A stretch of DNA of 14,325 nt from a virus (lineage: Duplodnaviria > Heunggongvirae > Uroviricota > Caudoviricetes): IMG/VR virus record IMGVR_UViG_2778261533_000003; one strand, written 5' to 3'. A program made the position numbers. This document shows, one piece after another, positions 1 through 3,000 of this stretch (its first letter is position 1; every line of letters starts with the position of its first letter).

Positions 1-3000
1 CCGGAACAATTTGAAAACAAGAACCTCGCTTAGGCCTGTGTCCATATTACGTGGGTAGGATCAGGTATCATGTAGGGAAAAACTAAAAAGAAGGGGGGGT
101 TATGGGTTGGTCTTCGCTGGTTAGGATAACCATTGGTACATTTCTATTAGCTGGGTTGTCGTTCTCTACATACGCGAAGAACTGCAAGAAAGGTATACCA
201 TGCGGTAATTCGTGCATTGCGGTTGGAAAAACGTGCAGGATTGGATCAAGCACCTCTTCTGCGTATAAAAATTATTCTTACTCTTACCCATCATCTTCTC
301 TTCATAGTTCAATCCCTAACTCCTCTTCACATTCCCCATCAGCGAAGGTTGAGGGAAAAAACACAGCTTCAACTGCGAAAACCTATCTCTGTCAGTACGC
401 TATTGCAGCAGTACAGAATGGTAGAATAGGTTCTTTACGTGTGCTGGGAAGTGCTGAAGTAACGTTGCATGTTGATAGCTTCAAAGCTAACCGTTTAAAC
501 GGTACATACTTGCTTTCGCCAAAGTTGAAACCTGATGGTAAGTTGATGACAGCAGATGATAAAAGCAAAGTGTACGCTTATGATTCGTTGCTGAATAACT
601 TTGCAATCAGTGATCGAGTTGCAAGGACTACTGAGCAATGGGATCATTGCCGTCAAAAATGATTGTTAGGGGGCAACATGGGAAGTGAACTGATTTCTGG
701 TTTAGTTGGTGCCTTGATAGGGGGATTGTTCACCCTGTGGGGTACTCTGATCGATGGACGTAGGCAAGACAGAGCTTCATTTAATGAAGCAAAGGATAAG
801 CAAAAGAGTGTCTTGATTGGAATAAAAGCAGAAGTCGAAACGCTTCTGGAACTTTATAAAGCCAGAATTTACGATTCTCTTGAAAATTATGAAGGTGGTA
901 AACCTTTTGAAAGCATCTTTCCGTTGACTCAAAATTATTTCTCATTCTATGAAAGCAACTCTTTTGCATTAACTTCTGTTAATGAAGAGACAATGAAGGC
1001 AATTGTTATTTGTTATGGCTCAGCAAGGAGTCTGGTTGATACTTTCAGAATGAATAATCAGGTTTTAGAGGACTTAGCTAAACTTCAAACCATATTTCAT
1101 GAAACGCAGAAAGATATCCATCGTTTTAATTTAGAACAGACTTACCATATTGCCACTCAATATGGCGAAGGTTTGAAGCAGATTCATGGCGAGGTTATGT
1201 CACGTATAGCCATCTGTTTAGATAAAATTAATGTTAATTTGGATGAACTTGAAAAGCCTGAGCAGGTAACGCGGTTAAAAACCGTTCTTAGGGCTTTAGC
1301 TTTTATAAAGTGAACTTGTTAAAATTAGGGGCAATATGTCTGGAGTGTTGGCAAGTACAGCGGCGGCTGTAGGTATCATTGACAAAGCTGTAGGTATTGC
1401 AAAGAAGCTCGCTGATGATGGCGGCGAACTTGATAAAGCAACGCTTAAACTTGAGCTTGCTAACCTCATGAGCGAACTTGCAAGTGTGAAGATGGAAGTA
1501 ATCACAACCCAAGCACTTCTTTTTGAGGCTGAACAGAAAAATAAGCAGCTTGAAGAGCAGCTAAAGGATAAGCACACCTTCACTTTCAAAGATGGACTTT
1601 ACTGGAAAGAAGGCGATGAAACAGCCTACTGTCCCAAATGCTTTGAAGTTGATAAGGTGCAAACACACATGGTTTTTTCGCGTGCCGTTGGTCAATACTC
1701 CGCGAGTTGGTATTGCATTAATTGCAGAAACAGCATTTATCCAAAATCCCGTTAAAATCGTTATTCTTTGGCGGAAGTGTCAAATGTTTTTGCATAAGGG
1801 CATTTCCCCTTAGTTACGTAAGTGAACAGATAATTGCTGTTCTGATACGTGCACAGCGTTTTTCCATTCTCCGTCTGTTCTTCCTGTGGGTTGACCATTG
1901 TTATCTGTCCGGCATTCGATAGGACAGGCAATAGCGCCAACGTCAGCACAAATAAGCTTTTAATTTGGATCACCATTCTAAAGAAAACTCCTCTGCTAAA
2001 TCGTCCTGCACATCCTGACCATACCCGATGTAATACATAGTAGAGCGCGGATCTGTCTGTCCCAGGAAATGGGCTATTGTCTCTATAGCTACCCCTGCAT
2101 CAAACATCACACGGCCCCGACTTTTACGTGGCGTATGGCATCCCACATTAGAGAATCCGGCTCTACGTCCCATCTTCCCAAATTCAGTGAATACCGTGTT
2201 ACGGGTTACGGCTTCGCCTTTACTGCGTAATGTGCCAGCACTGAAAATAAAATCTGTAGCTACAGGCATCTTCGTTTGCTCTGCCTTGCGTTGTGCCACC
2301 ACTGACAACATGGCGGGGGTAACTTTTGGCCTTACTACGTTTCCGGTTTTCTCCTGCTTTATCTTCAAATGAGATTGCCCCTCAACATCCTGATATTTTA
2401 GCTTGAGTACGTCAGAGACACGCAACCCGCTTTCATACATAAACACCCATAAGCAATAAAACAGGTTGGTTTTACTATTGCGCTGTAGCTCTGCTGCTAC
2501 TGTTTTTACCTCGTCTACATTCTTGAGGGCTTGGCTAATACCTTTCATCTTTATACTCTCCTTATTCGTTTCAATGAAAGTAGTTTTGATCATAAAATGA
2601 TCATTTTCAATATGTTGCACGATACGTTTTATGGTTGAGAGCACTAAATGATCAAAAATGATTAAAGGGCTATTAAAAGGTGATTAAGACTGATTAAAAG
2701 GTATTAAAGGCGATTAAAACCGATTTAATTTAGGTGCGTTCGTCACCATCGTTGAACACAAAGATCAAGCCTCCCGATCTGATGCAGGCACAAATATGAA
2801 ATATCTTGTTGATTTATAAGTAAATTTATTTTATGCAAACTGTTCACAAATGATTTGTCTTGTCAAGAAATTTATTTTCGGCAGATGAAAAATAGCCAAT
2901 AAATAGCGATAAATGGTCTATATATGCCTGAGTATATAAAGATCAGTAGGTTACAGAATACACTTTGCTAAAGTGTATCGAATCTGGGTTGTATTGCATT

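What the first reader, a model, noticed from the sequence alone, without database searches (positions are those of the whole stretch)
102..1755. Cargo cluster of three co-oriented genes between the left inverted repeat and the recombinase: exported Cys/Ser-rich protein, membrane-anchored protein, coiled-coil zinc-ribbon protein
Three tightly packed co-oriented genes with good RBSs and no recognisable housekeeping function. Accessory positions in integrative elements and satellites often hold anti-phage defence, toxin/immunity or surface-modification systems. A membrane protein paired with a zinc-ribbon coiled-coil protein could be a sensor/effector pair. Function is unassigned.
Basis: inference. 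Interest (0 to 1): 0.55.

Follow-up and report, generated by a model that had tools for sequence, protein, structure and literature searches.

The report
Swappable cargo slot in satellite island
The three genes are real but are not one system: they are three independently swapped cargo modules in the variable end of an E. coli phage-satellite-like island, where sister islands carry proven anti-phage genes, so two of them are untested candidate phage-defence genes.

Summary
Three tightly packed + strand genes (102-662, 678-1313, 1336-1755) are RefSeq-annotated on identical DNA and are under purifying selection. They have the predicted features: an exported Cys/Ser-rich protein, a protein with an N-terminal membrane anchor, and a coiled-coil plus zinc-ribbon protein.

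The "left inverted repeat" is the end of an IS3 copy. The genes lie in the attL-proximal variable region of a ~14 kb capsid-encoding island integrated at tRNA-Gly glyU.

Sister islands keep both flanks at 97-99% identity but swap the content. I found RAZR/PD-T7-4 (a validated defence gene), SieB, the PADLOC candidate PDC-S67, and other unknown genes in the same place.

The three genes also occur apart from one another, so a single three-gene sensor/effector system is not supported.
- g1 is a semi-conserved exported protein at the left end of the island.
- g2 is a rare membrane-anchored four-helix-bundle protein. It sits in the RAZR/SieB slot and has distant relatives in P2-like and filamentous prophages.
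- g3 belongs to a very large family (~2,000 clusters) with no Pfam, NCBIfam or PADLOC model. Its N-terminal hairpin is highly constrained and its zinc ribbon is swappable.

No gene matches a characterised family, and function is inferred from context only. I rate this a new member of a known kind (a defence hotspot), of moderate interest.

The parts
1..63 (.). It is inserted 38 bp upstream of the g1 start codon, at the left edge of the variable region.
   Evidence: 62 of 63 nt are identical to the reverse complement of window 14218-14280. This sequence is present in 5417 of 5426 E. coli genomes. An IS3 transposase is annotated beside the right copy in PSS-07. Islands without the IS continue into conserved glyU-proximal DNA here.
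102..662 (+). g1: exported 186-aa protein. It has a signal peptide, a 4-Cys motif (CKKGIPCGNSCIAVGKTC), a Ser-rich linker, and a ~95-aa C-terminal domain with two conserved Cys (C97, invariant, and C183).
   Evidence: RefSeq CDS WP_096263568. 73 homologue clusters across Enterobacteriaceae, none annotated. dN/dS 0.15-0.20. The C-terminal domain matches phrog_2578 and phrog_14768 (1e-17, 2e-15) and a Klebsiella prophage protein. The Cys motif is shared with proteins that have unrelated C-terminal domains.
678..1313 (+). g2: 211-aa protein with an N-terminal glycine-zipper membrane anchor (residues ~5-25) and a four-helix bundle, predicted to be cytoplasmic. It occupies the slot that holds RAZR, SieB or PDC-S67 in sister islands.
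1336..1755 (+). g3: 139-aa protein with an N-terminal helical hairpin (2-27, 34-78) and a C-terminal C4 zinc ribbon (C99, C102, C127, C130).
   Evidence: RefSeq CDS WP_069914051. AF2 pLDDT 78. 116 close clusters and 1968 clusters at E<=1e-3 in the exhaustive search. N-terminal dN/dS about 0.03-0.05. The zinc ribbon is swapped among a few types. No Pfam, NCBIfam or PADLOC family.
1761..1976 (-). orf71: small exported protein (71 aa) downstream of the small recombinase and convergent with g3. It lies at the right edge of the variable region.
   Evidence: RefSeq CDS. phrog_4641, 7e-7. Homologues lie in the same position in Buttiauxella and K. aerogenes islands. In UPEC132 the conserved right flank begins inside it, at about window 1852.
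1970..2548 (-). Small tyrosine recombinase (192 aa in RefSeq; the ORF extends to 2644). It is the conserved right anchor of the cargo region.
   Evidence: PF00589 1e-15. phrog_216 5.5e-29. It scores far below threshold on FimB/FimE-type invertase and Xer models. It is conserved next to the variable region in E. coli, K. aerogenes, Enterobacter and Citrobacter islands.
12122..13342 (-). Large tyrosine integrase of the island, at the end far from the tRNA.
   Evidence: PF00589 and DUF6538; RefSeq annotation.
13397..13418 (+). attR: 22-bp direct repeat (TCGATTCCCTTCGCCCGCTCCA) of the 3' end of tRNA-Gly glyU. It defines the true right end of the island. attL lies in glyU, about 0.5 kb upstream of window position 1 in islands without the IS3.
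   Evidence: Longest exact repeat between the tRNA region and the integrase-proximal region of L001.
14218..14325 (.). Terminus of a second IS3 copy, inverted relative to the left one. It truncates the glycoside hydrolase 15 (ygeQ) gene.

Best explanation
Window 102-1755 is the cargo end of a ~14 kb island integrated at tRNA-Gly glyU. The island encodes a lambda-gpE-like capsid protein, a tape-measure-like protein, a replication initiator, a large integrase and a small tyrosine recombinase. The stretch between attL and the small recombinase is a recombination hotspot. Both flanks are conserved, while the genes between them are exchanged as cassettes, presumably by homologous recombination in the flanks.

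The three genes are three separate modules, not one machine.

g1 is a secreted periplasmic protein that many islands of this family keep at their left end. I infer that it acts at the cell envelope, for example in superinfection exclusion or as a lysogenic-conversion factor.

g2 is a single-pass inner-membrane protein whose four-helix bundle faces the cytoplasm. It sits where sister islands carry RAZR, SieB or PDC-S67. I infer that it is a single-gene phage-exclusion or abortive-infection protein. The bundle would sense an infection cue, and the glycine-zipper helix would oligomerise to compromise the membrane or block DNA entry.

g3 is an autonomous small protein. Its constrained N-terminal hairpin would be the constant part, for oligomerisation or as an effector. 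Its swappable zinc ribbon would be the specificity part, by analogy with the zinc-finger domain of RAZR.

Shown here: gene reality, architecture, hotspot structure, independent assortment, and the presence of known defence genes in the same slot. Inferred: all functions.
For: Island and boundaries.
- The tRNA-Gly 3' end is repeated at window 13397-13418.
- The window region lies between glyU and GH15/ygeQ in many E. coli genomes.

Hotspot structure.
- The left flank (tRNA plus ~455 bp) is 97-99% identical in four glyU islands with different cargo.
- The right flank resumes at the g3 start (95NR1), inside orf71 (UPEC132), or at the recombinase (leuX island).

Contents of the slot in different islands.
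- g1+g2+g3 (this window and 15 genomes).
- RAZR+g3 (14 genomes).
- g1 + an exported 165-aa protein + PDC-S67 + g3 with a different zinc ribbon (A35).
- g1 + SieB + a 110-aa protein.
- Two small unknown genes.
- g1 + a 165-aa protein + a DUF3761 protein (Enterobacter).
- The region is AT-rich, with GC down to 0.35 over g2.

Independence of the three genes.
- g1+g2 occur without g3 in K. aerogenes.
- g2 occurs alone beside a small recombinase at thrW (L060), after ogr in P2-like prophages, and after zot in inovirus-like prophages.
- g3 occurs alone or behind at least 9 unrelated upstream genes in about 33 loci. These include plasmids and a P2-like prophage.
- About 290 E. coli genomes have RAZR-like genes without g3.

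g3 modularity.
- N-terminal dN/dS is about 0.03-0.05.
- The zinc-ribbon loops are hypervariable, and the ribbon types recur in different combinations.
- L020 has a different N-terminus with the window's zinc ribbon.

Prior from the literature.
- 6 of 8 randomly chosen unknown-gene loci from P4 satellite hotspots protected against phages (PMC13586616).
- In RAZR, the zinc-finger domain is the most variable part and sets specificity (PMC13017515).
Against: - No gene matches any characterised family by sequence (Pfam, NCBIfam, PADLOC, PDB sequences).
- Hotspots also carry non-defence cargo.
- g1 is too conserved across islands to be typical swappable defence cargo.
- Several cargo proteins here are exported (g1, orf71, the A35 165-aa protein). 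That would fit envelope or competition functions as well as defence.
- g2 and a g3-like gene are neighbours in two different arrangements (this window and Biostraticola L046). This hints at a link I cannot exclude.
- In this particular genome an IS3 sits 38 bp upstream of g1 and separates the genes from the native upstream region. Expression here is therefore uncertain.
Confidence: 0.6

Rival explanations
1. One reading: the genes, or at least g2+g3, form one operon-encoded system. The membrane protein would be the effector and the coiled-coil zinc-ribbon protein the sensor, or the reverse.
For: - The genes are tightly packed, with spacings of 15 and 22 nt, and I found no predicted terminator between them.
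- g2 and a g3-like gene are adjacent in two different orders: g2 then g3 here, and g3-like then g2 in Biostraticola L046.
- g3 often lies within 64 bp downstream of a co-directional gene, sometimes with overlapping stop and start codons, as in RAZR-g3.
- The analogous TM-anchored protein PDC-S67 also sits directly upstream of g3.
Against: - g2-family genes lack g3 in most independent contexts (K. aerogenes, thrW island, Enterobacter, P2-like and inovirus-like prophages).
- g3 follows at least 9 unrelated partners or none. Its N-terminus is nearly invariant, which fits poorly with specific contacts to such different partners.
- RAZR works alone (PMC13017515), and most E. coli RAZR-like genes have no g3.
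Confidence: 0.15
2. The genes serve the island itself rather than host defence. g3 would be an accessory or directionality factor or a regulator for the neighbouring small recombinase, or a factor that interferes with the helper phage. g1 and g2 would be other life-cycle functions.
For: - g3 is convergent with, and within 0-250 bp of, a small tyrosine recombinase in satellite-type islands.
- It lies near serine recombinases in Buttiauxella loci and on an Enterobacter plasmid.
- Weak sub-threshold TniQ hits occur for several family members.
- g1 is retained across many islands, like a core gene.
Against: - g3-like genes also occur with no recombinase nearby, for example between housekeeping genes in Aliarcobacter and beside DarTG in Serratia.
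- Island variants with the same recombinase lack g3 (UPEC132, K. aerogenes).
- Recombinases and cargo hotspots both sit at element ends, so adjacency is confounded.
- The TniQ scores (about 15-16 bits) are well below the Pfam cut-off of 27.
Confidence: 0.12
3. The exported proteins are bacterial-competition or envelope-modification cargo, for example immunity or toxin-related proteins or lysogenic-conversion factors, unrelated to phage.
For: - g1, orf71 and several alternative cargo proteins carry signal peptides.
- A g1-like gene in Morganella sits beside glycosyltransferases in a prophage.
- g3 neighbours in some loci look like PAAR/T6SS effector-immunity genes, judged from the sequences only, or lie near colicin genes.
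Against: - I found no similarity to any toxin, immunity or glycosyl-modifying family.
- The only recognisable occupants of this exact slot are anti-phage genes.
Confidence: 0.1

Closest known systems
Defence hotspots of phage satellites and temperate phages (P4 and P2 hotspots, Rousset et al. 2022, PMC9122126; de Sousa et al. 2026, PMC13586616)
   Same: A fixed position between conserved genes of a family of integrated, phage-related elements. Gene content turns over rapidly, known anti-phage genes sit there in some copies, and unknown genes sit there in others.
   Different: The carrier is not P4-like. It has no Psu, Sid, delta or alpha genes. It has a gpE-like capsid gene, a tape-measure-like gene, an O/DnaD-like initiator and an extra small tyrosine recombinase. 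The hotspot lies at the attL end next to that recombinase, not next to cos.
RAZR / PD-T7-4 (zinc-finger + DUF4145 HEPN RNase; PMC13017515)
   Same: It occupies the same slot in sister islands, directly upstream of g3. Like RAZR, g3 has a C4 zinc ribbon that is the most variable part of the protein.
   Different: g2 and g3 have no DUF4145/HEPN domain and no conserved R-x7-H motif. In g3 the zinc ribbon is C-terminal and joined to a helical hairpin. No RNase or ring-assembly evidence exists for either protein.
SieB and other prophage membrane exclusion or abortive-infection proteins (Pfam PF14163)
   Same: A small inner-membrane protein encoded by a prophage or satellite accessory locus. SieB sits in the equivalent slot of a related island at tRNA-Leu.
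   Different: g2 does not match PF14163. It has one TM helix followed by a four-helix bundle. I found no sequence or profile similarity.
PADLOC candidate PDC-S67
   Same: The same architecture class (short N-terminus, glycine-rich TM anchor, basic stretch, ~180-aa soluble domain) and the same position immediately upstream of g3.
   Different: Only 16 columns of the TM anchor align (hhalign probability 42%). The soluble domains are unrelated. PDC-S67 is itself only a computational candidate.

Membership tests
Defence or accessory hotspot of a phage-related integrative element | A fixed locus bounded by sequences conserved among related elements | tested here: met
   The left flank (tRNA to +530) is 97-99% identical in four glyU islands (88% in A35, 94% in WEC, where the match runs on into g1). 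The right flank resumes at g3, orf71 or the recombinase.
Defence or accessory hotspot of a phage-related integrative element | High turnover of gene content between closely related elements | tested here: met
   At least six different gene sets occupy the locus.
Defence or accessory hotspot of a phage-related integrative element | Known anti-phage genes occupy the locus in some copies | tested here: met
   RAZR/PD-T7-4 at 6e-90, SieB PF14163 at 1.5e-27, PDC-S67 at 3.7e-27.
Defence or accessory hotspot of a phage-related integrative element | The genes in question protect against phage | not testable with these tools
   This needs cloning and phage challenge.
RAZR / PD-T7-4 | DUF4145 (HEPN) domain with a catalytic R-x7-H motif | tested here: not met
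   g1-g3 have no PADLOC or Pfam hit to it. BLASTP of g2 against RAZR gives E>0.5. The g2 family has no conserved Arg/His pair.
RAZR / PD-T7-4 | N-terminal C4 zinc-finger domain that determines specificity | tested here: inconclusive
   g3 has a variable C4 zinc ribbon, but it is C-terminal and shows no detectable sequence homology. Its role in specificity is untested.
SieB (PF14163) | Match to the SieB profile | tested here: not met
   g2 has no hit at E<=1. The island-borne SieB in L025 scores 1.5e-27.
PADLOC PDC-S67 | Match to the profile over the soluble domain | tested here: not met
   g2 has no PADLOC hit to it. hhalign aligns only 16 TM columns.
Single multi-gene defence or toxin-immunity system (g1-g2-g3) | Components co-occur and are gained or lost together | tested here: not met
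   g1 is in 132 genomes and g1+g2 in 15. g2 occurs without g3 and g3 without g2 in most contexts.
TniQ / DksA-TraR / Ogr-Delta zinc-finger proteins (considered for g3) | Match to the family profile above threshold | tested here: not met

The most novel reading that the evidence does not exclude
g3 may represent a very large family (~2,000 clusters at 50% identity) of ~140-aa proteins with a helical hairpin plus a zinc ribbon. The family has no Pfam, NCBIfam or PADLOC model. It spans Proteobacteria, Campylobacterota and CPR bacteria, and occurs on plasmids, prophages and satellites.

On this reading it is a new kind of autonomous anti-phage or conflict module. A swappable zinc ribbon recognises an invader protein, and the invariant hairpin carries out the response. 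Alternatively, it is a generic accessory that travels behind many different defence genes, RAZR included, and modulates them.

g2 would then be a second new single-gene membrane exclusion family, shared by satellites, P2-like phages and filamentous phages.
Probability: 0.3. Interest if true: 0.7.

Novelty: new member of a known kind. Interest (0 to 1): 0.45.

Why it matters
If g2 or g3 protects against phage, two unannotated protein families would join the defence catalogue. One is rare (g2). The other is very widespread (g3), and its modular zinc-ribbon 'reader' parallels the trigger-recognition domain of RAZR.

The locus also defines a defence hotspot in an abundant E. coli island type that differs from P4. 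Parts of this island type occur in at least 641 of 5,426 complete genomes. That gives a practical place to mine for further systems, and a natural set of allelic replacements for swap experiments.

If the genes show no phenotype, the result is still useful. It shows that the cluster is three unrelated cargo modules rather than one system.

Tried and rejected
- **Profile scans of g1-g3.** Pfam, NCBIfam, PADLOC and PHROGs gave only PHROG families of unknown function and sub-threshold noise: LapA_dom, PDZ_3, TniQ, DMPK_coil and AbiEi.
- **HEPN idea for g2.** I tried it because g2 shares RAZR's slot and has an R-x7-H spacing at R150/H158. I rejected it because those residues are not conserved in the family and no similarity to RAZR exists.
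- **Fold searches.**
  - g3 against BFVD returned nothing at E<=0.001.
  - The afdb50 library was unavailable.
- **PDB sequence searches** with profiles of g2 and g3 found nothing below E=0.2.
- **Family scans of 66 diverse g3 relatives and 11 g2 relatives** gave only coiled-coil noise, such as LmuB and Macoilin.
- **tblastn of g2 and g3 against GenBank phages** found no match.
- **Literature.** The RefSeq accessions of the three proteins appear in no held paper. The DefensePredictor supplements are not held. I found no paper on a glyU satellite.
- **Invertible-switch idea.** I tested whether the 1.75-kb non-coding region next to the small recombinase inverts, prompted by inverted repeats at 2598-2616 and 4372-4390. 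In all 45 listed genomes the region lies on a single strand, which matches the flanking island in the genomes I could cross-check, so I found no support.
- **Rfam** scan of the whole window found no match.
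Full report
**1. What is in the window**

The window is an E. coli chromosomal island. Megablast finds 17 complete genomes with at least 80% of it, always between tRNA-Gly (glyU, next to actS/xdhA) and the glycoside-hydrolase-15/ygeQ gene at the edge of the ETT2 secretion locus.

The last 22 nt of the tRNA (TCGATTCCCTTCGCCCGCTCCA) are repeated at window 13397-13418, just beyond the large integrase at 12122-13342. The island therefore runs from glyU (attL, outside the window) to that repeat (attR).

The island encodes:
- a lambda-gpE-type capsid protein (PF03864)
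- a 613-aa protein matching tape-measure PHROGs
- an O/DnaD-like replication initiator
- the large integrase
- a small 192-aa tyrosine recombinase at 1970-2548

I recognised no terminase, portal or tail genes in the ORF list or in the subset of proteins I scanned. I call the island satellite-like, but I did not classify it further.

Window 1-63 and 14218-14280 are the same IS3 terminus in inverted orientation (62 of 63 nt). An IS3 transposase is annotated at the right-hand site in strain PSS-07. This IS3 copy sits 38 bp upstream of the g1 start codon.

**2. The observation**

The three ORFs are confirmed. RefSeq annotates them on identical DNA.

*g1 (102-662).* It has a signal-peptide-like N-terminus, the motif CKKGIPCGNSCIAVGKTC, a Ser-rich linker, and a ~95-aa C-terminal domain with two conserved cysteines (C97, invariant, and C183). 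dN/dS is 0.15-0.20.

*g2 (678-1313).* It has a glycine-zipper hydrophobic helix followed by RRQDR. AF2 (mean pLDDT 82, about 60 over the anchor) shows this helix and then a four-helix bundle. The positive-inside rule places the bundle in the cytoplasm; this is an inference. Non-synonymous divergence is far below synonymous divergence.

*g3 (1336-1755).* AF2 (pLDDT 78) gives a helical hairpin and a small beta-rich domain with four invariant cysteines. Codons 1-80 have dN/dS of about 0.03-0.05 at saturated dS.

**3. The locus is a hotspot**

I compared DNA from the tRNA to past the small recombinase.
- The first ~530 bp are 97-99% identical in four glyU islands with different cargo.
- Similarity then stops about 55 bp before g1.
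- It resumes at the first codon of g3 (95NR1), inside orf71 (UPEC132), or at the recombinase (an island at tRNA-Leu).

Between these flanks I found the following contents:

| Island(s) | Content |
|---|---|
| This window and 15 genomes | g1+g2+g3 |
| 14 genomes | RAZR/PD-T7-4 + g3 |
| A35 | g1 + an exported 165-aa protein + a TM-anchored protein matching PDC-S67 + g3 with another zinc ribbon |
| tRNA-Leu island | g1 + SieB + a 110-aa protein |
| UPEC132 | two small unknown genes |
| K. aerogenes | g1+g2, no g3 |
| Enterobacter | g1 + a 165-aa protein + a DUF3761 protein |

RAZR is an experimentally characterised abortive-infection RNase (PMC13017515). SieB is a classical exclusion protein family. 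Parts of the neighbouring non-coding region are found in 641 of 5,426 genomes, so the island family is common.

**4. The three genes assort independently**

*g1.* It is present in 132 E. coli genomes, including 71%-identical variants and a copy left behind after an IS3-associated deletion. It also occurs in many Enterobacteriaceae.
- Its Cys motif is a portable N-terminal module found on proteins with unrelated C-terminal domains.
- One such protein sits in the gpA-gpQ hotspot of a P2-like Pseudoalteromonas phage.
- Its C-terminal domain recurs in a Klebsiella prophage accessory region and in a Morganella prophage.

*g2.* It is rare, with 20 clusters.
- Relatives stand alone beside a small recombinase at thrW.
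- Others lie in an Enterobacter prophage remnant.
- Others lie after ogr at the end of P2-like prophages.
- Others lie after zot in inovirus-like prophages.
- The family shares the signature VDSF[RK]xNN and invariant E52, N94, Y113, N126, N127 and Y162.

*g3.* It is common, with 116 close clusters. An exhaustive profile search finds 1,968 clusters at E<=1e-3, almost all 130-160 aa with the same architecture.
- None of 66 diverse members hits a real Pfam or PADLOC family.
- In about 33 independent loci, about half have a co-directional gene ending within 64 bp upstream.
- Those upstream genes come from at least 9 unrelated families: RAZR, g2, PDC-S67, a Serratia 177-aa protein, a lipoprotein, and others.
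- The rest stand alone, including loci between housekeeping genes in Aliarcobacter.
- Most RAZR-like genes in E. coli have no g3.
- The g3 zinc ribbon comes in a few recurring types that are recombined with the N-terminal part. L020 has a different N-terminus with the window's zinc ribbon.

**5. Mechanism**

Nothing identifies an enzymatic domain. My best-supported reading is that this is hotspot cargo made of separate modules. g2, and probably g3, are candidate single-gene phage-exclusion or abortive-infection proteins. g1 is an envelope-acting accessory protein.

The proposed workings are inference by analogy with membrane Abi/Sie proteins and with the specificity-determining zinc finger of RAZR:
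- g2 would act through oligomerisation of its membrane helix, controlled by the cytoplasmic bundle.
- g3 would read a target through its swappable zinc ribbon and act through its constant hairpin.

The prior is reasonable. Six of eight randomly chosen unknown loci in P4 hotspots were protective.

**6. Rivals**

*A g2-g3 pair.* It is weakly supported by tight spacing and by a second, rearranged g3-like/g2 neighbourhood in Biostraticola. The many separate occurrences argue against it.

*A role for g3 with the adjacent recombinases.* Repeated adjacency to small tyrosine or serine recombinases suggests it. That adjacency is confounded by both lying at element ends, and loci without any recombinase contradict it.

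*A competition or envelope role for the exported proteins.* I cannot exclude it.

**7. Novelty and score**

Defence hotspots in satellites are well known. This is a new instance in a different, abundant island type, holding three uncharacterised genes.

The most interesting element is g3. The family is very large and has no Pfam, NCBIfam or PADLOC model. Its N-terminus is under strong constraint and its zinc ribbon is swappable.

All function is untested, so I rate interest as moderate (0.45).

Noticed in passing
window 1-63 and 14218-14325: Two IS3 copies in inverted orientation bracket the whole island plus a truncated GH15/ygeQ gene. The left copy sits 38 bp upstream of g1, at the left edge of the variable region. 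It may cut g1-g3 off from their native promoter or supply an outward one. The pair could also mediate inversion or composite movement.
   Followed up: partly
window 2645-4400: A 1.75-kb gene-free, AT-rich region (GC about 0.32-0.35) lies between the small recombinase and the island's + strand genes. It holds two exact 23-bp tandem duplications (3333-3378 and 3518-3563), a ~75-bp segment repeated 183-184 bp apart (3432-3505 and 3616-3688), and a run of GATTAAA-like motifs at 2650-2720. Rfam finds nothing. Parts of it occur in 641 E. coli genomes. It may be an origin with iterons, or a regulatory region. Inverted repeats at 2598-2616 and 4372-4390 flank it, but I saw no inverted copies in other genomes.
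   Followed up: partly
window 4747-4913 and 4980-5240: Two short stretches, in and just upstream of the island's replication-initiator-like gene, are 90-96% identical at DNA level to hypothetical genes of large (~146-151 kb) virulent coliphages (muut, inny, Mt1B1_P17, PaulScherrer, Justusliebigvirus). This could reflect gene exchange with a candidate helper or target phage.
   Followed up: no
window 8407-12014: The island carries a gpE-like major capsid gene (8797-9825), an upstream 123-aa gene, and a 613-aa protein matching tape-measure PHROGs (4.7e-66). I recognised no terminase, portal or tail genes. It does not look like P4, and I did not recognise the portal, protease, adaptor or small-terminase genes I would expect of a capsid-forming PICI. 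I found no paper describing a glyU island of this type.
   Followed up: partly
window 1761-1976 (- strand): A 71-aa exported protein gene overlaps the end of the small recombinase gene and appears to be co-transcribed with it. Homologues sit in the same place in Buttiauxella and K. aerogenes islands (phrog_4641).
   Followed up: partly
L070 (E. coli O26:H11 FWSEC0001), 1737-3996: A second, divergent RAZR-like DUF4145 gene overlaps the 3' end of a 535-aa site-specific integrase in another element, inserted in tandem right after the satellite's integrase end. About 290 E. coli genomes carry this type, without g3.
   Followed up: partly
L015-L019 (Klebsiella), L051 (Vibrio plasmid): DUF2971-domain genes recur within about 1-1.5 kb of g3-like genes in unrelated replicons. 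In Klebsiella the block RAZR-g3-DUF2971-IS-colicin is constant, while its upstream flank differs in five contexts.
   Followed up: no
L020 and L046 versus window 1336-1755: g3-family proteins exist with a second, unrelated-looking N-terminal hairpin type (MADP.SLAAISGTLELVNKSVDLVR…). In L020 this type is fused to a zinc ribbon nearly identical to the window's, which is direct evidence of domain shuffling within the family.
   Followed up: partly
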